A stretch of DNA of 44,620 nucleotides. Origin: Tidjanibacter sp. (GTDB lineage: Bacteria; Bacteroidota; Bacteroidia; Bacteroidales; Rikenellaceae). The position numbers were made by a program, and so were the translations under genes. Numbering within the stretch: the first letter of the stretch is position 1; the number at the start of each line of letters is the position of its first letter. This document shows, one piece after another, positions 1-41,199 of this stretch. Below the pieces are notes generated by a model. The model was given only the letters and a program-made list of their open reading frames with translations. It did not search any database and was not told where the DNA came from. The DNA lies in the NCBI GenBank assembly GCA_045597245.1, contig JAZODY010000111.1, forward strand, positions 1 to 44,620. Reading direction: 5' to 3'.

Positions 1-19
1 CATTCTCGGAGTAATTGAG
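1..19. repeat. Terminal direct repeat (1-19 = 44602-44620); circular assembly overlap
   Basis: CATTCTCGGAGTAATTGAG at both ends; the ORF starting at 44249 continues through the junction to GTT TAA at 20-25. Confidence 0.95.
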
Positions 20-47
20 GTTTAACGCAAGAAAGGAGGAATAGAAT

Positions 48-332
48 ATGGCAAAAAAGATTTCAAGAGCCGAAAGATATGATGTAATCTGCCGAGACAA
101 AGGACTGACTTTGCGAGAGTGTAAAGTGCTGTCTTTTGAGCGTGGCGAAAAGGCCGTATCGATTGGGACATTCCATTATACTCTCATGTGGGCCAATGTG
201 CCAATAATTATTTTCGATGGTATCGAAAGAGGAGCGAATGTAATTGTAAAAATTAATGATGATATTATAAAAGTTATTCGTTCCATTGCGAAAGATTGCG
301 GGCTTGTCGAAGTCACGACCAATCTTGCCTGA
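48..332 (+). CDS. Hypothetical protein, last gene of an early accessory cluster
   Basis: 94 aa ORF, AGGAGG upstream, followed by a hairpin at 341-371. Confidence 0.75.
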   Translation: MAKKISRAERYDVICRDKGLTLRECKVLSFERGEKAVSIGTFHYTLMWANVPIIIFDGIERGANVIVKINDDIIKVIRSIAKDCGLVEVTTNLA

Positions 333-340
333 AAAGTAGC

Positions 341-408
341 AAAAACCCCGCTCGAATGAATCCGGGCGGGGCGGTCTAATACCATTGTGAGCGATACGAT
401 GGGAAGAC
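341..408 (-). ncRNA. Putative antisense sRNA-1, complementary to the start region of gene 2002
   Basis: Minus-strand TATTTTTG -7 box at 413-420; GC hairpin + U5 terminator at 341-371; 381-411 resembles 1983-2015. Confidence 0.65.
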
Positions 409-451
409 AGAGCAAAAATAGGAAAATAGCGGGAATTTTCAGCGGTTCTCG

Positions 452-595
452 CTATTTCTTTTTGCTTTGCGTGGTCTTTTCGCGGTATCCTGATGCATAG
501 ATGGCGCGAGCTTGGGCTTCAGCTTGTGCACGAGTGGGATAAACTTTGCCGGATTGGCCCCAACGCCAGCCTCCGGGGACTTTCATAATAGGCAT
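452..595 (-). CDS. Small basic phage protein, 47 aa (MPIMKVPGGWRWGQSGKVYPTRAQAEAQARAIYASGYREKTTQSKKK); not in ORF track
   Basis: Manual translation; A-rich leader, minus-strand TAAATTTG promoter at 622-629, hairpin at 424-457 overlapping the stop. Confidence 0.8.
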   Translation of the reverse strand: MPIMKVPGGWRWGQSGKVYPTRAQAEAQARAIYASGYREKTTQSKKK

Positions 596-621
596 ACTGA
601 TATTTTTTTAAGGTTTCCTGA

Positions 622-648
622 CAAATTTAGGAAAAATTTCTATCTTTG
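622..648. promoter_or_regulatory. Divergent pair of Bacteroidota sigma-A -7 boxes
   Basis: TAAATTTG on minus strand (622-629) and TATCTTTG on plus strand (641-648). Confidence 0.7.
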
Positions 649-652
649 TATG

Positions 653-711
653 GTCATTTTTGACAGTCATATCAAAGTTCTGTTGCCCCGTTCGTCGAAA
701 CGGGGCTTTTT
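653..711 (+). ncRNA. Putative sRNA-2
   Basis: Promoter at 641-648, ~32 nt single-stranded region, then GCCCCGTT/AACGGGGC hairpin + T5; no credible ORF. Confidence 0.55.
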
Positions 712-774
712 CGTTACGTTGGAAACATAGGAAATTGTTGGAAATCGTTAAAAACTCAAAAAAAATAAAAAAAA

Positions 775-806
775 TGGTACAATGTTAAAAAAAAGTTGTA
801 TATTTG
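775..806 (+). promoter_or_regulatory. Early promoter repeat, copy 1
   Basis: TGGTACAATGTTAAAAAAAAGTTGTATATTTG ending in a TAnnTTTG box; also at 7030, 13307, 40878. Confidence 0.85.
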
Positions 807-869
807 TACCCAGAAAACATAACAACAACGGTCCGGGCCGGTTCCCGGTAAAACAAAAAAACAAAAGAT

Positions 870-1100
870 ATGGCAAACACAATTACACTTCGCTTCACAG
901 AACAAGAGCTCGACATCCTTTATTTTGCGCTGAATCATTACGCGCTGGAAAACATGAAAGAGTCCAAAACTTGGGCGAATGCGGCGGCGGCGATGGAACG
1001 CGGCGGTGATGACATCTGGGCCGCTACTGCAAGGCAGGCGGGCACGATTCAGGACCGCGTATATGACGCACAGAAGAAATTAGAAAAGAAAAACAAGTAA
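870..1100 (+). CDS. Hypothetical early protein
   Basis: 76 aa ORF with A-rich leader after early promoter 1. Confidence 0.75.
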   Translation: MANTITLRFTEQELDILYFALNHYALENMKESKTWANAAAAMERGGDDIWAATARQAGTIQDRVYDAQKKLEKKNK

Positions 1101-1104
1101 AGCC

Positions 1105-1590
1105 ATGTACTTCAAAATAGACAATAACCTGCGCAAGATTGCGGACTTCACAAATTGCATAACTTTCGAAGCCCTTTCGCGCCATCTGTGCGATGAATTT
1201 ATCGCAGCTGGTCTCATAGAAGATGAGCCGTATAACTACGGAAATTCGGTAATGAATGCGACGTGCGGCGCATTTGTAAGCGATGTCGCTGAAACGCTTT
1301 GTCACGCTCTTAGTGTGAAACGCGTGTCTGCGGATGTCTTCGGAGCATTTTGTGCCCTTACGCTCATGGGCGAAGGCAACTGCCCTGAATGCGGGGGAAC
1401 GATGGAACTCTATGAAGACGATGGCAAATGGCAGCCGAGCGGGGACAGGGATTGCCCGCCCTCATACGAATCCCATCATCGTGAATATCACTGCAACTGC
1501 TGCGGCTGTAAAGCCTTTGCAACCGGCCTTTCGGATGTTCAGGATTTCGACGCAGAAGACGAAAACAATATAACCTACGAAAATGATTAG
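1105..1590 (+). CDS. Zn-ribbon-containing hypothetical protein
   Basis: CPECGG ... CNCCGC motifs. Confidence 0.7.
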   Translation: MYFKIDNNLRKIADFTNCITFEALSRHLCDEFIAAGLIEDEPYNYGNSVMNATCGAFVSDVAETLCHALSVKRVSADVFGAFCALTLMGEGNCPECGGTMELYEDDGKWQPSGDRDCPPSYESHHREYHCNCCGCKAFATGLSDVQDFDAEDENNITYEND

Positions 1591-1813
1591 AATTGATGCA
1601 GCCATTGCCCGGGCGAAAGAACAGGGCATCAAGGTACGAAAGCTCGACCTCGCCGCGGAGATGTGGCCCGCTGCCACTCCGCAGGCACGGAGGGCTAACA
1701 TGACAAACCTCTGTTCCGGCAGGACTACCCGCGTGGAGCCGGAATGGGTTGAAAAGATTTGCAGGCGCTGCGGCTGCACCGCAGACTTCCTGCTGGGCCT
1801 GTCGAACGAATGA
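1583..1813 (+). CDS. XRE/Cro-like helix-turn-helix regulator
   Basis: 76 aa; DLAAEM...MTNLCSGRT...VEKICRRCGCTADFLLG pattern typical of HTH_XRE. Confidence 0.75.
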   Translation: MIRIDAAIARAKEQGIKVRKLDLAAEMWPAATPQARRANMTNLCSGRTTRVEPEWVEKICRRCGCTADFLLGLSNE

Positions 1814-1983
1814 AATACGACAATCATATAAATCTCATTTGGGTCGTGGTCTGGGGATTAGTTCTCGCGGGTGCTATCCTCGGTATGTTCTGGAAGCCGG
1901 CCCTGTGGATAATCGTCGGCGTGTCAGCCTTTATGCTGGCTGTGTTTGCCGCTGAATTTATCCGCATCCTACGGATGAAATAA
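1810..1983 (+). CDS. Small two-TM membrane protein
   Basis: Two hydrophobic stretches; ATGA overlap with the upstream gene. Confidence 0.65.
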   Translation: MKYDNHINLIWVVVWGLVLAGAILGMFWKPALWIIVGVSAFMLAVFAAEFIRILRMK

Positions 1984-2001
1984 CCATTTAAGCGATACGA
2001 T

Positions 2002-2988
2002 ATGGAACAGACAGAAAAGACAACAATCGAGTTCGTGCCCGGCCTATCGGCCGAGGAGATGCGAGCACTCTTTTTCGACGCAACAGCCCTGACCGAGCCG
2101 CCTTACAAGGTGTATCAGCTCAATTCGGAAGGGTGGCGTTATTACTACCGATTCAACGAGCTGGGAGAGCCGGAGTTCTATCCCTCCGTCACGACGCTGC
2201 TGCACCGAGTTATGCCGACCAGCCCTTTCCTGATTGATTGGATTGTGGCTAATGGCAAGGAAGGCGCAGCCGAGAAGCGCGACCTTGCGGCCGCATACGG
2301 GACATTCATGCACGCGCAGTTCGAAGCCCTGCTGATTATGGGGCAATACGATTTCGATACCGTGCCACTTACATTGCAGGCATATATAGAACGCGAGAAT
2401 CTGCCTGACAAGGTATTCAATGAGTGGGCCGTCAAAATCCGCAAAGACATCCTCGCATTCGTACAGTTCGTGCGTGACTACAAGGTACGTCCGCTGGCGA
2501 TAGAGATTGCGCTGGTGCATCCTGACAAGCGCTATGCCGGTTGTATCGACTTGCCGTGCATCCTGACCGACCCCAAGACCGGGGAGGAGTTCTCCGCAAT
2601 CGTGGACTTCAAGAGCGGACGAAAAGGGTTCTGGGAAGAACACGAGCTGCAACTGCACATGTATAAAGATATGTGGAATGTGACCTTCCCGCAGAAGCCT
2701 ATCGAAAGGGTGTTCAACTTTGCTCCGAAGGATTGGCGCACAAAGCCGACATATACCTTCAAGGAACAAACGGGCTCCGTCAACGCGGCCAAATTGCCAG
2801 CACTGCTTGCGCTGGCCGCTATCGAGGACGACAAACGCGATAACACGCTGACGGTCGTGACCGGGCGCGTGGAACTCTTTGACGGTTCTCTCGAAGACAA
2901 CATCCAGACGCTCTCTCTTGCCGAGCTGGTGAAATCCAAACCGGCAGAGGCCGTGCCGGAACAGAGTGATAACGAAATCGGATTGTGA
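2002..2988 (+). CDS. PD-(D/E)XK exonuclease (phage recombination nuclease)
   Basis: YPSVTT, GTFMH, YAGCID, IVDFKSG, QLHMY motifs. Confidence 0.85.
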   Translation: MEQTEKTTIEFVPGLSAEEMRALFFDATALTEPPYKVYQLNSEGWRYYYRFNELGEPEFYPSVTTLLHRVMPTSPFLIDWIVANGKEGAAEKRDLAAAYGTFMHAQFEALLIMGQYDFDTVPLTLQAYIERENLPDKVFNEWAVKIRKDILAFVQFVRDYKVRPLAIEIALVHPDKRYAGCIDLPCILTDPKTGEEFSAIVDFKSGRKGFWEEHELQLHMYKDMWNVTFPQKPIERVFNFAPKDWRTKPTYTFKEQTGSVNAAKLPALLALAAIEDDKRDNTLTVVTGRVELFDGSLEDNIQTLSLAELVKSKPAEAVPEQSDNEIGL

Positions 2989-2989
2989 T

Positions 2990-3703
2990 ATGGGCGGAAG
3001 GATTATAAGGCCCGAACAGGGCGCGGCAATGCTTGAATTGCCCGAAATCGGCCGCTTGCATATCGGCATGAAAAACGAGCGCGGCCTTCCGACTTCAATA
3101 GATTGGTTCCGCCCCACGGGAAAGTATGCAGCCCTTTTCACGGCTGCACTTGGAGAACGGCCCCAGACAATACAGGTGATTTTCCCTGACGACGACCCGA
3201 CAAAGGTCTGCAATGAACGCTACGAATATCGGGACGATAAGGGGGCGCTCGTCGCTCGCGGTGACGGCAGAACCTTCGAAGTCTGGAACGGGAAGAAATA
3301 TGCGCCGTTCTCCGTCAATGAGCATCCCGACCTCATGAAGCGTCTTGCGGAGCGTTATCCGACGCGGCGCGGGCTGGAGAATTGGGATATTGCCCTGACG
3401 CTGCGTTTCATCGTGCCGGCGGTGCGCGGAGTTGTGGGAGTGTGGCAGTTCTCAACGAAAGGAGCGGCATCTTCCGTGAAGAATATCCGCAACTCTTTCG
3501 ACGGGGTGCAGCTCATGCGCGGCACGGTCACGCAGACCGTCTTCGACCTATCAGTGCAGTTTGCCAAGAGCAACAAGCCGGGCGTCAATTCGCGTTACCC
3601 GGTCGTGTCGCTGGTGGCGAATGACACGCGCATCGACGAAATCCGCAAAGCGATAGCCCCGACAGAAAATTTGTCATTATTGTTGCCGGAAGAAAGAAAA
3701 TAA
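2990..3703 (+). CDS. Recombination protein, Gp3-like/RDF-like family (putative annealase partner)
   Basis: LPEIGRLHIG..G.P...DWF...GERP..I..IFP pattern recalled from that family; adjacent to the exonuclease. Confidence 0.55.
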   Translation: MGGRIIRPEQGAAMLELPEIGRLHIGMKNERGLPTSIDWFRPTGKYAALFTAALGERPQTIQVIFPDDDPTKVCNERYEYRDDKGALVARGDGRTFEVWNGKKYAPFSVNEHPDLMKRLAERYPTRRGLENWDIALTLRFIVPAVRGVVGVWQFSTKGAASSVKNIRNSFDGVQLMRGTVTQTVFDLSVQFAKSNKPGVNSRYPVVSLVANDTRIDEIRKAIAPTENLSLLLPEERK

Positions 3704-4279: not shown

Positions 4280-5022
4280 TCAATCACCCCTGTAATGGGA
4301 ATTTCACTATAATACCGAATGACTTATTGCAAAACCCAGAACTTTCAATTTTTGCGAGGGGCTTGCTTGTTTTCATTCTTTCGCTGCCCTCTAATTGGGA
4401 GATTCACGTGGCGCAAATAGCGGCAAAATTTGACGAAAGCGAGCACAAAATCTTAAAGGCCCTCCGGGAACTTATAGAGCTGGGATATTGCAAGCGTGAG
4501 CCGTTGCGAAAGGACGGAAGACTTCACGGACAGCAATACATCATAACAGACACACCGAACTGTTTTTCAGCCCCCGTCAAAAACAGGGGGGCAGAGTTCG
4601 GAGCAGCCCCCGCCGAAATCCAGCCCACTGAAAATTCAGCCCCACAGAAAAATGAGGGGGCAATAAAAGAATATAATCTATTTGACAAAGAAAATATAGA
4701 TGAGATAGAAAAAGAAAGAACTCGCGCAAAAGGCACGAGTGAGAAGAAGGATATTCTCTTTGTTGATAGTAGATATTTCGAAATGGATAAATTCTTGGCT
4801 GCATTCCCGCAGAAAGAATTCGCCGGCATCGATTTGGTATATTATTACCATGCTGTTGCAGATTGGAGCGCGAGCAAAGGCGCGAAACGAAGGGATTGGA
4901 TAGCATGTGCCCGAAATATAATCCGCAGCGACATTGAGAAGAACAAATTGCATCGGCTGGCGGTCGGGGGCGCGGCCCTTTCGCCGGATGCAATCAAGTA
5001 TTTACAAGACATGGCCGACTAA
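4264..5022 (+). CDS. Phage replication initiator (N-terminal winged HTH)
   Basis: NFTIIPNDLL..PELS..ARGLL..ILS...W; internal iterons; C-terminal DW.ACARN. Confidence 0.8.
   Translation: MEQTIINHPCNGNFTIIPNDLLQNPELSIFARGLLVFILSLPSNWEIHVAQIAAKFDESEHKILKALRELIELGYCKREPLRKDGRLHGQQYIITDTPNCFSAPVKNRGAEFGAAPAEIQPTENSAPQKNEGAIKEYNLFDKENIDEIEKERTRAKGTSEKKDILFVDSRYFEMDKFLAAFPQKEFAGIDLVYYYHAVADWSASKGAKRRDWIACARNIIRSDIEKNKLHRLAVGGAALSPDAIKYLQDMAD
4566..4720. repeat. Putative replication origin: iterons plus AT-rich tract
   Basis: CAGCCC(C/A) at 4568, 4604, 4621, 4637; inverted GGGGGC at ~4587 and 4656; A/T-rich 4662-4720, all inside the initiator gene as in lambda O. Confidence 0.7.
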
Positions 5023-7029: not shown

Positions 7030-7061
7030 TGGTACAATGTTAAAAAAAAGTTGTATATTTG
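7030..7061 (+). promoter_or_regulatory. Early promoter repeat, copy 2
   Basis: Identical 32-mer to 775-806; downstream leader also nearly identical to ~7105. Confidence 0.85.
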
Positions 7062-7612: not shown

Positions 7613-7683
7613 TGCGCCGTGGTGTAATGGTAACACCCGAGTTTTTGGCACTCGTATTCCTCGTTCGAATCGGGGCGGCGCAG
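7613..7683 (+). tRNA. tRNA-Gln (UUG)
   Basis: Acceptor TGCGCCG/CGGCGCA, D stem GTGT/ACAC, anticodon stem CGAGT/ACTCG with TTG at 7645-7647, T arm CCTCG-TTCGAAT-CGGGG, discriminator G, no encoded CCA. Confidence 0.92.
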
Positions 7684-13188: not shown

Positions 13189-13281
13189 GGTTGTATGGTG
13201 TAATAGGCAGCACGTCGCTTTACCTTTTTTGAGTGGTTTTGGGATAGAGCGAAGATGCAGGTTCGAGCCCGGCTTCAACCA
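13189..13281 (+). ncRNA. tRNA-like element with a 31-nt region in place of the anticodon loop
   Basis: Acceptor GGTTGTA/TTCAACC+A, TGGTGTAATAGGCAGCAC D arm, TCGCT/AGCGA stem, GCAGG-TTCGAGC-CCGGC T arm. Confidence 0.7.
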
Positions 13282-13306: not shown

Positions 13307-13338
13307 TGGTACAATGTTAAAAAAAAGTTGTATATTTG
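13307..13338 (+). promoter_or_regulatory. Early promoter repeat, copy 3
   Basis: Identical 32-mer to 775-806. Confidence 0.85.
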
Positions 13339-13952: not shown

Positions 13953-14843
13953 ATGGCACACAACAATTCAATCAATGTTTATCAAATGGTAACAGACCGC
14001 ATCGTCAAGATGATGCAAAACGGCATTATTCCTTGGAAGAAACCGTGGAAAGGTCTGAAAGGTGCAGGAACGGAGGATATGGCAATATCATACGTCACGC
14101 GCCGCGCATATTCTCTACTCAATCAGTGGCTCCTCGGTGAGCCGGGTGAATATCTCACCTACAACCAGATTAAGGAACTCGGCGGCAAAATCAAGAAAGG
14201 CGCGAAAGCTCGTTTCGTTGTGTTCTATACGAAGGTTGAATTCGTAAAAAAGAACGAAGAAACCGGCGAAGATGAAAAGCACTCCTATCCGCTGCTCAAA
14301 TACTATAATGTCTTCCATCTCAACGACACCGAAGGCATCCCCACCAAGATAGGCACAGAACCCCACAACGATAATATCGAAATGGACGTGACTGCGGATG
14401 CTGTCATAATGGATTACGTAGCAAGAGAAGTGGGGCTGCGCTTCGTTAACGACCAGCCCAGCAATCGCGCATATTATTCCCCGTCGGAAGATAAGGTCGT
14501 TGTTCCCATGCCGGGACAATTCGAGAATATATCCGAATACTATTCCACGGCATTCCACGAGCTTACCCACTCGACCATGAAGGCATCCCGCTGCAATAGG
14601 GAATCCGACAATGCAAATTCTTTCTTCGGGAACGAATCCTACTCCCGCGAGGAACTTGTTGCGGAAATGGGCGCGGCAATGCTCTGTGACATTACGGGTA
14701 TCAAGGACGAAAGGGCATTCAGCAATTCCGTTGCATATCTGCAAAGTTGGATTGCGGCCTTGAAAAAGGATATTAAGATGCTTGTCTGGGCCGCGGCCCG
14801 CGCCGAGAAAGCGGCAAAATACATCCTGAATATAGCAGCATAA
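13953..14843 (+). CDS. ardC: ArdC antirestriction protein (ssDNA-binding N domain + zincin-like domain)
   Basis: YQMVTDRI...GIIPWKKPW...YSLLN; AYYSPSEDKV.VP....F....YYSTAFHELTHST; YSREELVAE; YLQSW. Confidence 0.92.
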   Translation: MAHNNSINVYQMVTDRIVKMMQNGIIPWKKPWKGLKGAGTEDMAISYVTRRAYSLLNQWLLGEPGEYLTYNQIKELGGKIKKGAKARFVVFYTKVEFVKKNEETGEDEKHSYPLLKYYNVFHLNDTEGIPTKIGTEPHNDNIEMDVTADAVIMDYVAREVGLRFVNDQPSNRAYYSPSEDKVVVPMPGQFENISEYYSTAFHELTHSTMKASRCNRESDNANSFFGNESYSREELVAEMGAAMLCDITGIKDERAFSNSVAYLQSWIAALKKDIKMLVWAAARAEKAAKYILNIAA

Positions 14844-14922
14844 ATGGAATACCCGAAACAAATCCCGATGGCTGATACGCGGGGTCGCTACGACTAAATG
14901 TTCAAATAATAAAAATTTTTGT

Positions 14923-14962
14923 TACCTTTGCCTCTGTCTTAACGGTTGCAAGGGTAACGACC
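14923..14962 (+). promoter_or_regulatory. Promoter and AAGGG-loop leader hairpin of the modification/packaging operon
   Basis: TACCTTTG at 14923-14930; GGTTG-CAAGGGTAA-CGACC at 14944-14962. Confidence 0.65.
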
Positions 14963-14964
14963 AT

Positions 14965-15045
14965 TTTTAGGCGATTTCCTGCCCGTTAAGGGGCAAAGCA
15001 ATAAAGTATATCACTAAGAGCGTTCATCGCTCTTAAAACGGAAAA
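14965..15045. repeat. Dispersed TTTAAGAG element, copy 3 (reverse)
   Basis: CGTTCATCGCTCTTAAA at 15021-15037 identical to 27038-27054. Confidence 0.7.
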
Positions 15046-15064
15046 CTAATAAAAATAACTGCTT

Positions 15065-15664
15065 ATGTTGGAAATCGTCTATCGTAAACTCGCGGACTTA
15101 AAACCGAATCCGAAGAACCCCCGTGACCCAAATCCCGAAGAAACCACTAATCTCGCCGAAAGCATCAAAAAGAACGGGATGTTTTTTGAAGCCCGTCCAA
15201 TTCTTCTATCTGACAGAACGGGCGAACTCGTCATCATCGCTGGTGAAAGGCGTTCCGAAGCGGCCCGTCTCCTCGGTTTAGAGCAAGTTCCTACAATTCT
15301 GCTGACAGGGCTTACCGAGGAGCAAGAGGATGAAATAATGGTGCGCGATAACACCCATTCCGGGGAATGGAGTCCGAAAAAACTCGCAGCAATAGCAGCC
15401 CAATGGGGGGGGGAGATTGTTAAATCTTGGGGAACCGGGGTGACATGGGACGCCGAAGAATTCGTCAAGACAACAATCCCAGAATTAGCGGGATTGGGGG
15501 AGGAAAAAGAACTTGCAGAAATCTTGAACGAGGAAGGGTCATTGGCCCGGGAAAGAATTATCATAACTTTCGCGTCGGAAGACAAGCAAAAAATTGCAGA
15601 ATTCCTTCATCTGGATGCTGTTAAAAAAGTATTATACCGATTCGAAGAAATATGCGAATCCTAA
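15065..15664 (+). CDS. ParB/Sulfiredoxin N-terminal domain protein
   Basis: LKPNPKNPR...LAESIKKNG....PILL.....IIAGERRSEAARLLGLEQVP...DN. Confidence 0.9.
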   Translation: MLEIVYRKLADLKPNPKNPRDPNPEETTNLAESIKKNGMFFEARPILLSDRTGELVIIAGERRSEAARLLGLEQVPTILLTGLTEEQEDEIMVRDNTHSGEWSPKKLAAIAAQWGGEIVKSWGTGVTWDAEEFVKTTIPELAGLGEEKELAEILNEEGSLARERIIITFASEDKQKIAEFLHLDAVKKVLYRFEEICES

Positions 15665-16389
15665 TTCCATCATATCATCGTGCGGATAGAATGAAGACCG
15701 TGCATTATTTGTGCGGTATTTGTGGCATATCCGCAACTGACATCACTATCTCTCTGCAAGATGACGCAGATATTGAAAGTTATAAGAAATTTGGTTGCGA
15801 TTTACATTATGCGCCCGCCACAAATGTTGCTGGCAATCGCAATAATGGATTGCGTTATCTGCGGGCCAAATATCCCGGGGAAGACATCGTGATGTTTGAC
15901 GACGATATTGATTATCTTTTACTTTTGACAAAAGAGGGGGATAGAAAACATGCCATCACACGGAAATTAAAGGGGGAAGAATTGATAACTATTTTATCGT
16001 CTCTCTTTGAATACGCCTCGAAAAAAGAAGCGAGTCTTTGGGGCATAAACGCCCTTGACAATCCTCTTTTCATGAAGACAAAAGTTTTGCAAAATATAAT
16101 CCTTGCTGGTTGCGTTATGGGTTTCGTCGGTGGTGGTAAAGAACTCTATTTTGATGAAGAATTTGCCCTGAAAGAAGACTACGAATTGTCGCTTCGTGCA
16201 ATGCAACAGGGTGAGCGGATATTAAAATTTTGTATGTTAGCGCCACGAACAAATTTTCGTGCTCCCGGAGGGTGTACCGAAGTGCGAAAAAAACAAAGCG
16301 AAAGCAAATTTGCAAATAGGCTTTTGGAAGAATATGCCGGCATTATAAAGGCCGACCCTCAAAGACCGGGTGAAATAAAAATGATTTAA
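15652..16389 (+). CDS. GT-A fold glycosyltransferase (TET-associated GT-like)
   Basis: ILIPSYHR, RN, VMFDDD (DxD), KEDYELSL, PGGC motifs. Confidence 0.8.
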   Translation: MRILIPSYHRADRMKTVHYLCGICGISATDITISLQDDADIESYKKFGCDLHYAPATNVAGNRNNGLRYLRAKYPGEDIVMFDDDIDYLLLLTKEGDRKHAITRKLKGEELITILSSLFEYASKKEASLWGINALDNPLFMKTKVLQNIILAGCVMGFVGGGKELYFDEEFALKEDYELSLRAMQQGERILKFCMLAPRTNFRAPGGCTEVRKKQSESKFANRLLEEYAGIIKADPQRPGEIKMI

Positions 16390-16392
16390 TAT

Positions 16393-17634
16393 ATGACAGA
16401 TTACGGAAGTCCACGATGGACGACAGAACTTGTTGATTGCAGTATGCCGATGACATTCGACACTTATTCGAATTGTGCGTTCGGCTGCCTTTATTGTTTC
16501 AGTCAATATCAGCGTGCCCTTGGAGGGGCAAAGGACGCCTATCTCAATAAAGAAGTAAAGGCCGTCAATGTGGAAAGAATAAAGAAGATGTTCCTCAATC
16601 CAGACGAGCACGCAGGTCAATTTGCCGACTATATCAAGCAGCGCCGCGTCATGCAGTGGGGCGGCCTTTCGGATGAATTCGATGGCTTTGAGCAGAAACA
16701 TGGCCGGACACTTGAGCTTCTTCGATTCTTCAAGGAAATTGATTACCCGCTCTGTTTCAGTACGAAGGGTACATTCTTCACGCTCGACCCGAAATACATG
16801 GAACTCATACAAGGACAAAAGAATTGGAATTTCAAATTTTCAATCATTACTGCCGACGAAAAGAAAGCTCGTATAATTGAAAGGGGGGTGCCAAGTCCGA
16901 AAGAAAGGCTCAAAGCAATTGAGCGGATAGCCAAAGCCGATGCCGGTGGTGCGACACTTCGATTAAGACCTTTTATCCTTGGAATCAGCACCCCGACATA
17001 TCTGGACCTTATAAAAGATGCCGCTGATGCGGGGGCTACTGCTGTCAGCACGGAATTCCTCTGTATTGAGCGCCGCAGCCTTACGCTTCGTCAGGCAATG
17101 CCGACTATCAATCAATTATGTGGTTTCGACCTGTATGACTTCTATATCAAACATAGTCCGGGAACGGGTTATTTGCGATTGAGTGAGCAAGTCAAGAAGC
17201 CTTTTTATGCAAATATGGATGCTTTATGCAAGCAATTGGGCTTGCGGTTCTATGTTTCCGATGCACACTGGAAAGAACTTTGCTGTAACGGGTCGTGTTG
17301 TGGATTAAGCAAAGATTGGAATTATGCCAAAGGACAATTCTGTCAAGCGCTGCAAATCGCCAAAGAAAAAGGTACAGTGCGCTGGAGCGATATAGAAGAA
17401 GATAACCGGGCAATATTCAGCAAAGTGCCTTATGCAAGAGCACAAGGCTTCAATTGTGGTTCGTCGGAGAATCGTGCAAAATTTGACGGCATGTCACTAA
17501 CCGATTATATGCACTATCTCTGGAACACACCAAAATCAGGGAACAGTCCTTATAAACTTTTCTTTGGTGTTATTGTTCCCGATGGCCACGATGACAATGG
17601 GGATATAATATATCGTTTCAAAGGGAGGAAATAA
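16393..17634 (+). CDS. Radical SAM enzyme (spore-photoproduct-lyase-like)
   Basis: DTYSNCAFGCLYCFS (CxxxCxxC); GGLSDEF, STKG, IERGVPSPKERL, LRLRPFI; extra C-terminal CCNGSCCG. Confidence 0.88.
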   Translation: MTDYGSPRWTTELVDCSMPMTFDTYSNCAFGCLYCFSQYQRALGGAKDAYLNKEVKAVNVERIKKMFLNPDEHAGQFADYIKQRRVMQWGGLSDEFDGFEQKHGRTLELLRFFKEIDYPLCFSTKGTFFTLDPKYMELIQGQKNWNFKFSIITADEKKARIIERGVPSPKERLKAIERIAKADAGGATLRLRPFILGISTPTYLDLIKDAADAGATAVSTEFLCIERRSLTLRQAMPTINQLCGFDLYDFYIKHSPGTGYLRLSEQVKKPFYANMDALCKQLGLRFYVSDAHWKELCCNGSCCGLSKDWNYAKGQFCQALQIAKEKGTVRWSDIEEDNRAIFSKVPYARAQGFNCGSSENRAKFDGMSLTDYMHYLWNTPKSGNSPYKLFFGVIVPDGHDDNGDIIYRFKGRK

Positions 17635-23361: not shown

Positions 23362-23413
23362 CACCTTTGCGATACGGAAAGACAATTAACCAAAAATTCA
23401 AAGGGAAAGAATT

Positions 23414-24361
23414 ATGGCACTTACAACCGAACTATTGAGAGCGAACGCCGGATTGGCGGGCCTCACAGACGAGCAGGTCAATGCAATCGTAGAGATGTCC
23501 CAGAACGACGAAACCGCCGTTATCGGGCAGAAGACGGGTGAAATCTATGGCGGACTGGACGCAGACATTCTTGCCGCGTCCGGTATCGCGAAGAACGGTA
23601 CCGAGAAGACCTACGACTATGCCAAACGAGTGATTGGCGAAATCAAGGGGCAAGCCGGCAATGCTGCCGAGCTGCAAAATCAGGTGGCCGAACTGACAAA
23701 GGAGAAAACCCGTCTGGAAGGTATCATCGCAAAGGGTGGCGCTGATGCTGAAACTCGCAGGGCACTTGACGCGGCGAAAGCCGACCTCGCGAATGTCACC
23801 CGTGAATATGGCGAACTGAAACAGAGGTTCGACACCGAGAAGGCAGCGCACGAGAAAGCGCTGTTCGATGCAAAAATCAGCAGTGAGTTCTCGAACATCG
23901 CAGGAGGCATCAAGTTCAAGCCCGAACTGCCCGCCAGCGCAACGGCTGTCCTTCTGTCACAAGCTGTCGGAAAGGTAAAGGGAATGAATCCCCAATACAT
24001 CGACGACGGTGCGAACGGCAAGATTCTCGCTTTCACGGAAAACGGTACAATCATGCGCAACCCGGAAAACAACCTCCGTCCTTACACCGCATCGGAACTT
24101 GTTGCCCGCGAGCTGAAAGCAATGGGCGTCCTTGATGAAGGCCGTCAGCAGACAGGCGCAGGCACGCAAGGCGGCAACGGTGGCGGAACAGGTACGGGAG
24201 TGGATATTTCCGGCGCACGCACCCAAGAGGAAGCTCATGAAATCATCGCCAAGGGGCTGATGGCACAGGGCAAGGTCAACGGCTCGAAAGAATTCGAAGA
24301 AGCGATGGCCGCCGCTTGGAAGGAGAATGCGGAACTCCTGAAGAAACTCCCAGTCCGCTAA
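23414..24361 (+). CDS. Capsid scaffolding protein
   Basis: Coiled coil and Gly-rich linker near the C terminus; immediately upstream of MCP. Confidence 0.7.
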   Translation: MALTTELLRANAGLAGLTDEQVNAIVEMSQNDETAVIGQKTGEIYGGLDADILAASGIAKNGTEKTYDYAKRVIGEIKGQAGNAAELQNQVAELTKEKTRLEGIIAKGGADAETRRALDAAKADLANVTREYGELKQRFDTEKAAHEKALFDAKISSEFSNIAGGIKFKPELPASATAVLLSQAVGKVKGMNPQYIDDGANGKILAFTENGTIMRNPENNLRPYTASELVARELKAMGVLDEGRQQTGAGTQGGNGGGTGTGVDISGARTQEEAHEIIAKGLMAQGKVNGSKEFEEAMAAAWKENAELLKKLPVR

Positions 24362-40639: not shown

Positions 40640-40656
40640 ATCATTATCTTTGTGCC

Positions 40657-40723
40657 ATTGGTATTTGCATAGGTTTTTCATTCTCACTATTCCCACCCCG
40701 TTGTGAAACGCGGTGGGTTTTTT
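40657..40723 (+). ncRNA. Putative sRNA-3; its terminator also ends the late operon
   Basis: TATCTTTG at 40645-40652, ~35 nt U-rich region, CCCACCCCGTT/AACGCGGTGGG hairpin + T6. Confidence 0.55.
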
Positions 40724-40740
40724 CATACGATTGCCGTTTT

Positions 40741-40877: not shown

Positions 40878-40908
40878 TGGTACAATGTTAAAAAAAGTTG
40901 TATATTTG
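40878..40908 (+). promoter_or_regulatory. Early promoter repeat, copy 4
   Basis: Same motif with A7 instead of A8. Confidence 0.85.
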
Positions 40909-40965
40909 CCTTCGAAAACATACCGCACCGGGGCGATACTCGGAAACAAAATAATGAACAGAACA

Positions 40966-41199
40966 ATGGCAAAGCTCAAATACACCAGCAAGGAAATCAA
41001 TAACAATTACAAGATTAAGGTTTCCGGCATCTTCGAAGGCAAAAAGATAAACACTCTTGTTGGAGTGGCCGGCCTTCTGAATATCGTTAATGACATCGAC
41101 CTTACAAACCGCCTCCTTGACAGGGCTTTCTCCTGCATGGAAGATGTTTGCGTTTGCAAGCTCCGTCGTGGCATCAAGATTTCATTTTACGTTGCTTAA
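40966..41199 (+). CDS. Hypothetical early protein
   Basis: 77 aa (alternative start 40954); CKLRRGIKISFY. Confidence 0.7.
   Translation: MAKLKYTSKEINNNYKIKVSGIFEGKKINTLVGVAGLLNIVNDIDLTNRLLDRAFSCMEDVCVCKLRRGIKISFYVA

What the first reader, a model, noticed from the sequence alone, without database searches (positions are those of the whole stretch)
341..420. Trans-encoded antisense sRNA matching the start codon region of the phage's own recombination nuclease
Seen: a ~68-nt minus-strand unit with its own TAnnTTTG promoter and intrinsic terminator. Its plus-strand image ACCATTgtgAGCGATACGATgggaAGACAGA (381-411) aligns in three ordered blocks (6, 11 and 7 nt) with ACCATTtaAGCGATACGATatggaacAGACAGA (1983-2015), which spans ATG 2002. 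Inference: the RNA pairs over the initiation site of the first recombination/replication gene and acts as a translational off switch. In a phage with no integrase this could control a carrier state or superinfection immunity.
Basis: partly seen in the sequence, partly recalled or inferred. Interest (0 to 1): 0.78.

Follow-up and report, generated by a model that had tools for sequence, protein, structure and literature searches.

The report
Phage small RNA silencing recombination genes
This phage and its relatives, from gut Bacteroidales to a marine flavobacterial phage, keep a promoter-to-terminator unit for a predicted ~70-base RNA whose loop is complementary to the start of the phage's own nuclease gene and changes whenever that start changes, so it likely acts as a translation brake on recombination genes, although the RNA has not yet been observed.

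Summary
The minus-strand unit (promoter 420-413, RNA about 408-341, terminator) is real. Its 11-nt core matches 1991-2001, directly before the exonuclease ATG; that start ranks 1 of 66. A unit was found in 23 of 24 related genomes examined. Seed and target change together: the PDS1 clade uses a different seed whose site lies in codons 1-4; one genome has an unrelated 16-nt seed matching its own nuclease start; in Croceibacter phage P2559S the unit is inverted yet still antisense, and 9 of 9 complementary sites sit at annotated starts. An SMC/SbcC-like ATPase, absent from this window, is a second conserved target (17 of 18). No expression data were obtained. Base-pairing repression is likely (about 0.85). 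Its purpose is open: a lytic dosage/timing brake fits best; the carrier-state or immunity idea is unsupported but not excluded. No Rfam match; no description found in my searches, but a large viral RNA catalogue's alignments were unreadable. The scan noted similar sRNA-to-start units in other phages; I did not test whether they are this family.

The parts
413..420 (-). Bacteroidota -7 promoter element TATTTTTG (TAnnTTTG type; motif name from my own knowledge)
   Evidence: equivalent element 3-7 nt before the RNA stem in all 21 units found by pattern (one reads TATCTTCG)
341..408 (-). predicted sRNA, about 68 nt; ends inferred, not mapped
372..408 (-). 5' domain: weak two-helix stem (GUC/GAC outer, CCA/UGG inner) with a large loop carrying the seed
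   Evidence: outer helix is GCA/UGC in the PDS1 clade; folding energy only -6 kcal/mol
390..400 (-). seed, perfect 11-nt complement of 1991-2001
341..371 (-). intrinsic terminator: hairpin 371-346 and U tract 345-341
1983..2015 (+). target region on the nuclease mRNA: core -11..-1 (1991-2001), co-varying block +8..+14 (2009-2015), non-conserved block 1983-1988
2002..2988 (+). target gene, PD-(D/E)XK exonuclease (328 aa), followed by a Gp3-like gene, replication initiator and Holliday junction resolvase
   Evidence: Pfam PF12705 and PF18897; phrog_298 exonuclease, phrog_270, phrog_1770
40933..40939 (+). possible secondary site (7 nt) just before the small early gene ending at 41199
   Evidence: this family has a >=8-nt site in 6 of 20 genomes; weak here
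23369..23384 (+). possible secondary site (seed plus second block) 45 nt upstream of the capsid-associated gene at 23414
   Evidence: GCGAT at a similar position in 6 of 11 genomes of this clade; role unresolved

Best explanation
The unit likely makes a ~68-nt non-coding RNA from a host-type promoter, and its loop is predicted to pair over the start codon region of the phage's exonuclease mRNA and block ribosome loading, as a likely brake on recombination/replication genes during lytic growth. Shown: the promoter-stem-loop-terminator layout, its conservation, the complementarity, and parallel change of seed and target. Inferred: transcription, pairing in vivo, repression rather than activation (the duplex covers -11 to +14, including the AUG and the -3 position). 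Most likely purpose (about 0.55 given the mechanism): the RNA and its early targets use the same promoter class, so the RNA would accumulate with time and genome copy number and cap or shut off the exonuclease, and in relatives the SMC/SbcC-like ATPase and other early genes.
For: Unit found in 23 of 24 genomes examined (21 by pattern; G010 and G011), often between the same two gene families in both clades. T run after the hairpin on the antisense strand in 19 of 21 versus 4 of 21 on the coding strand; G-U pairs 18 versus 7. Nuclease family has a >=8-nt seed site in 18 of 21 genomes; 25 of 42 families present in >=10 genomes have none. ATPase start has a >=8-nt complement in 17 of 18 genomes holding both (first two ATGs examined). 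Cognate pairs beat cross pairs: p=5e-5 for 20 genomes, p=0.009 within the window's clade of 12. Seeds replaced in parallel: 16-nt (G011), 13-nt (L284), 11-nt (L274), 9-nt (L275, L282, L285, L287) perfect complements to each phage's own nuclease start. Motif-blind screen: 32 of 36 representative loci had a unit, 23 of those 32 matched their nuclease start at p<=0.05. P2559S: unit on the coding strand, still antisense; 9 of 9 complementary 7-mers lie -16..+8 of annotated starts, such windows being 5.4% of the genome. PDS1: 12 coding-strand sites, 0 on the other strand; one is the unit's own image, 10 of the other 11 have an ATG within 14 nt, all ten in the first 21.5 kb.
Against: No transcript was observed. 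No -33 element flagged here. The 5' stem is weak and often folds as well or better on the opposite strand; the window's own terminator hairpin is slightly more stable on the plus strand (-17.7 vs -15.1). RNAalifold on the MAFFT alignment recovered only 5 terminator pairs. TCUEAP2 has the unit but its nuclease start ranks 34 of 61. G021, L013, L273 and PD482P1 show no unit; L278's unit does not match. Covariation is absent within the PDS1 clade (p=0.99, little variation). Genomes are related, so counts are not independent, and I chose nuclease starts in the window's clade knowing the motif. Nothing tests the timing function.
Confidence: 0.6

Rival explanations
1. Same base-pairing repression, but its job is immunity: a resident, non-integrated phage genome keeps early genes off (carrier state) and silences superinfecting phages with the same seed, as c4 does for P1.
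For: No integrase among 53 ORFs scanned; the contig is circular (19-nt terminal overlap); all 11 hits in bacterial genome assemblies lie on contigs of at most 44.6 kb, none inside a long chromosomal contig; multi-target regulon; seeds diversify between lineages; PDS1 coexists with its host for days (PMC10773633, passages).
Against: PDS1 formed no stable lysogens (PMC10773633, passages); coexistence is ascribed mainly to host capsule phase variation (PMC12118408, abstract passage); the seed is nearly uniform across the PDS1 clade and shared with P2559S, which is less diversity than immunity groups would predict.
Confidence: 0.2
2. The RNA binds the start regions but stimulates or stabilises them (opening structure or recruiting ribosomes in a host lacking Shine-Dalgarno recognition).
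For: Sites float from -16 to +14 and mark many genes; Bacteroidetes mRNAs lack SD sequences (PMC6847099, abstract).
Against: In the window the predicted duplex covers the AUG itself. Blocking the site before the capsid-associated gene did not open its start region in the window (0.52 to 0.52) and changed it by more than 0.1 in only one genome.
Confidence: 0.08
3. The shared motif is a protein-binding site (DNA operator or RNA-protein site) and the locus is a sense-strand decoy in the 3' end of the upstream early transcript.
For: An HTH gene lies at 1583-1813 (weak Pfam hits); the plus strand has a terminator at 424-457, so the upstream transcript may cross the locus.
Against: When the unit is inverted (P2559S, L267-L276, L284) the transcribed strand still carries the complement, not the motif; the motif is replaced wholesale between relatives; promoter and T run are on the antisense strand.
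Confidence: 0.07
4. A decayed duplicate of the nuclease gene start, or chance similarity.
For: The plus-strand image holds an ATG in register in several genomes and opens short ORFs (33 aa here; 62-66 aa in G007, G012, G015).
Against: No ATG in register in G001, G002, G003, G005 and G006; ORF lengths vary; conserved promoter, stem and terminator; inversion; parallel seed replacement.
Confidence: 0.03

Closest known systems
c4 antisense RNA of phages P1/P7 (PMC8198154, passages; Rfam holds a C4 family by my recall)
   Same: Phage RNA that base-pairs with the phage's own mRNA at a repeated site to block expression.
   Different: c4 lies in the same operon as its targets icd-ant and maintains lysogeny through an antirepressor (passages read). 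This RNA has its own promoter and terminator 0.5-3.5 kb from its target, aims at an exonuclease, an ATPase and other starts, and occurs in phages without integrase. No Rfam match.
Cis-antisense phage RNAs: P22 sar, lambda OOP and aQ, BTP1 STnc6030 (review PMC12197685, parts 1-2 of 6 read)
   Same: Short phage RNAs that cut expression of a phage gene; sar blocks translation initiation; STnc6030 gives superinfection exclusion.
   Different: Those overlap their targets and match fully; this one is encoded elsewhere, pairs through an 8-16-nt seed plus a second block, and has several targets.
Trans-acting phage sRNAs PreS (lambda), VpdS (VP882), 24B_1 (same review)
   Same: Trans-encoded, short imperfect pairing.
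   Different: Hfq-associated and aimed mainly at host genes or an antirepressor; Bacteroidota lack Hfq by my recall (one search did not show that statement).
Candidate structured RNAs of Fremin et al. 2023 (PMC10690425), e.g. DNAVirus_6565
   Same: DNAVirus_6565 is 74-76 nt, 321 sequences, from Alistipes-infecting tailed phages, and highly expressed in faecal small-RNA-seq (section 7, supplement rows); similar size and host group to the PDS1-clade unit.
   Different: Identity cannot be told: alignment files were unreadable, motif searches of the readable files found nothing, and it is listed without a terminator. 'Antisense' occurs once in the main text and no passage shown assigns a target.

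Membership tests
trans-encoded base-pairing sRNA | own promoter and intrinsic terminator, no conserved ORF | tested here: met
   (sequence signals only)
trans-encoded base-pairing sRNA | short seed complementary to a distant mRNA, conserved or co-varying | tested here: met
trans-encoded base-pairing sRNA | RNA is expressed | not testable with these tools
   no RNA holder listed; only contigs available
trans-encoded base-pairing sRNA | changes target expression through pairing | not testable with these tools
   needs reporter and compensatory mutations
P1/P7 c4 antisense RNA | sequence/structure match to an Rfam model | tested here: not met
   only two tRNAs in the window at gathering score; no hit at the unit up to E=10 in L081, L200; weak unrelated hits near it in L201
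P1/P7 c4 antisense RNA | encoded in one operon with icd-ant targets | tested here: not met
   no antirepressor hit among 53 ORFs; target is an exonuclease 1.6 kb away
cis-antisense RNA (sar, OOP, type I antitoxins) | overlaps its target gene on the opposite strand | tested here: not met
   unit lies between ORFs 48-332 and 870-1100
candidate family Paboviridae (host phage) | genome-wide relatedness to PDS1/PD491P1/AS73P1 by VIRIDIC/VICTOR | tested here: inconclusive
   28 of 66 called genes have PDS1 homologues at 28-70% identity in similar order; the formal tools were not run

The most novel reading that the evidence does not exclude
A family of integrase-less Bacteroidota phages uses one small RNA with an exchangeable seed as a master repressor of an early-gene regulon, giving protein-free superinfection immunity or a carrier state, with seed swaps defining immunity groups.
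Probability: 0.2. Interest if true: 0.88.

Novelty: new variant of a known kind. Interest (0 to 1): 0.72.

Why it matters
Regulation in Bacteroidota phages is poorly known, and PDS1-like phages are common gut phages that coexist with their hosts without integrating. This gives a concrete, conserved regulator with predicted targets in cultured phage-host pairs (PDS1, AS73P1, C1_85S2P, P2559S), so how such phages time or restrain replication becomes directly testable. It is also a clean natural case of an sRNA scaffold whose seed is rewritten together with its targets, in hosts whose ribosomes do not read Shine-Dalgarno sequences.

Tried and rejected
Expression: no RNA holder listed; laying four contig sets gave no cover of the unit in the three possible RNA runs and a 76-nt DNA-like piece over 362-437 in X1; neither is evidence on expression. 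blastn of 1-3000 against cultured phages: no match. First pattern over 81 loci was too strict (2 matches). Pattern scan of viral contigs: 118 loci, only 8 near a nuclease homologue, the rest treated as chance. One search picked wrong start codons for many loci and was superseded. RNAalifold on MAFFT alignment missed the 5' stem, so model R1 is mainly a sequence model and scored PDS1-clade units weakly. Host targets: the motif is not a general start signal in the assembly holding the window (22 hits among 2451 ORFs, mostly GCGAT+ATG), and that assembly may not be the host, since relatives are binned with unrelated taxa. Activation of the late capsid-associated gene by hairpin opening: not supported. 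The combined Fisher p is not used because loci are related. G019:45310 pattern hit was dropped as unrelated; G016 was dropped from the permutation as having the same RNA as G004; G009, G014 and G023 were not fetched. Literature searches showed no description of this RNA in listings.

Full report
Context. The window is a complete circular phage contig (19-nt terminal overlap) held as contig C111 of a 1.79-Mb assembly. Its proteins resemble those of PDS1-like phages: the 328-aa ORF at 2002 is a PD-(D/E)XK exonuclease, 56-57% identical to those of PDS1, PD491P1, AS73P1, BKO1-3 and C1_85S2P and 47% to Croceibacter phage P2559S; 28 of 66 called genes have PDS1 homologues. No integrase was found among 53 ORFs scanned. 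PDS1 is placed in the candidate family Paboviridae, lacks lysogeny genes, formed no stable lysogens and coexists with its host (PMC10773633, passages).

Observation. The coordinates are right. AGCGATACGAT occurs only at 390 and 1991. On the minus strand, TATTTTTG at 420-413 is followed after 4 nt by a weak stem-loop and a strong hairpin with a T run (fold z -2.4, 6 of 200 shuffles as good). The nuclease start is the best partner of the RNA core among 66 called starts, and 0 of 200 shuffles match it. With the full RNA the lead over the next start is only 1 kcal/mol.

Conservation. A nuclease search gave 80 loci. I fetched 20 of the 23 virus records given handles plus PDS1, TCUEAP2 and AS73P1, 24 genomes with the window. 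Patterns found the unit in 21, a looser scan added G010 and G011, and G021 has none. The T run lies on the antisense strand in 19 of 21 against 4 of 21 on the coding strand, and terminator G-U pairs favour that strand 18 to 7. The outer helix reads GUC/GAC in most of the window's clade and GCA/UGC in the PDS1 clade (my positional comparison). The 5' domain is weak (-1 to -8 kcal/mol) and does not by itself tell the strand. About 390 stored viral stretches hold the PDS1-clade core (estimate), and 6 cultured phages match the PDS1 unit.

Seed and target change together. In the window's clade the loop complements GCGATA(C/T)(G/A) just before the nuclease ATG; G004 and G016 change one base in both and share 14 nt. 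In the PDS1 clade the loop complements GAGAGCGA and the site has moved into codons 1-4. Each clade's 7-mer is enriched at its own starts: the window-clade 7-mer reaches p<0.05 in 11 of 13 window-clade genomes with the patterned unit (not in the window itself, one site, nor G002) and in 0 of 8 PDS1-clade genomes; the PDS1-clade 7-mer in 6 of 8 and in 1 of 13. Cognate RNA-nuclease pairs beat cross pairs (p=5e-5, 20 genomes; p=0.009 within 12 window-clade genomes; p=0.99 within the PDS1 clade). G011 has an unrelated seed with a 16-nt perfect match to its own nuclease start, and G010's loop matches a site after its ATG. More distant loci show further seeds. In a motif-blind screen of 36 loci under 90% nuclease identity (40 before de-duplication), 32 had a promoter-hairpin-T unit and 23 of these matched their nuclease start at p<=0.05; 4 had none, 9 were not significant. 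These loci are related and I curated the starts, so this is supportive, not a clean probability.

Orientation test. In P2559S and in L267, L269, L270, L271, L274, L275, L276 and L284 the unit lies on the coding strand, yet its transcribed strand still carries the complement of the target. In P2559S all 9 coding-strand copies of the complementary 7-mer lie within -16..+8 of annotated starts (including exonuclease, HTH replication gene, resolvase and one virion protein) and the only opposite copy is the unit. This argues against a DNA operator, a sense decoy or a gene relic.

Regulon. The nuclease family carries a >=8-nt site in 18 of 21 genomes; next come the ATPase-containing family (10 of 18 with automatic starts), a small early gene (6 of 20) and a DnaQ-like exonuclease (4 of 17); no other family exceeds 2. 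With the first two ATGs examined, the SMC/SbcC-like ATPase (AAA_23/SMC_N hits) has a site in 17 of 18 genomes. The window lacks that gene, so here the nuclease is the one strong target. TCUEAP2 keeps the ATPase site but not the nuclease site.

Mechanism. Shown: layout, conservation, complementarity, co-change. Inferred: an RNA of about 68 nt starts pairing through its loop, extends into codons 3-5, and occludes -11..+14. Bacteroidetes initiation depends on mRNA structure and upstream bases such as A-3 rather than SD pairing (PMC6847099, abstract), so occlusion should repress. The RNA and early genes share the same promoter class, which would give a delayed negative feedback on DNA-processing enzymes. 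I give about 0.85 to base-pairing repression and, within it, favour a lytic dosage/timing brake over immunity, because PDS1 shows no lysogeny and its persistence is ascribed mainly to host phase variation (PMC12118408, abstract passage). No result here separates the two directly.

Known systems. No Rfam family matches. It works like P1 c4 (PMC8198154, passages) and other phage antisense RNAs (PMC12197685, parts 1-2 of 6) but fails their defining features. My searches (listings only unless named) showed no description. The structure may already be catalogued without a target in PMC10690425 (section 7, passages, supplement rows seen; alignment archives and PDFs unreadable). Earlier scan notes describe similar sRNA-to-start units in other phages; they are unchecked and were not used as support.

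Verdict. Real, conserved, and probably a multi-target trans-acting sRNA; a new variant of a known kind; interest 0.72, limited by the absence of expression or functional data.

Noticed in passing
window 641-712 (+) and 40645-40724 (+): Two more promoter-short RNA-terminator units. Best complements to the phage's own starts are only 8 nt and weak; they may be sRNAs with host targets.
   Followed up: partly
L284 and L285, about 4.0-4.5 kb upstream of the nuclease; also L011, L013: Two to three tandem promoter-short RNA-terminator units on the coding strand, some with similar terminators: a possible sRNA array.
   Followed up: no
L002:1650-1735 (+): Second unit in the opposite orientation whose loop complements AAACGATACG, matching this phage's altered target sites better than the orthologous RNA does.
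   Followed up: partly
L019:6215-6285 and several similar loci: Another antisense-strand hairpin unit with a GCGATAAG image about 1.25-1.6 kb downstream of the nuclease match.
   Followed up: no
window about 776-806, 7031-7061, 13308-13338, 40878-40908: Four near-identical early promoter cassettes ending in TATATTTG; an earlier scan note describes such cassettes in a related genome.
   Followed up: no
window 424-457 (+): Plus-strand terminator directly adjoining the sRNA promoter; the upstream transcript may cross the sRNA locus and form a perfect counter-strand.
   Followed up: no
L260:4430-5050 (PDS1_11): The annotated start overlaps the sRNA unit; orthologues suggest the real start is the ATG at 4616.
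   Followed up: partly
L280-L290: Relatives sit on short stand-alone contigs binned with unrelated taxa, so assembly taxonomy does not give the host.
   Followed up: no
window 7613-7683, 13189-13281; 13953-17634: Two tRNA genes; ArdC-like anti-restriction gene and a ParB-N/glycosyltransferase/radical-SAM cluster suggesting DNA modification.
   Followed up: no
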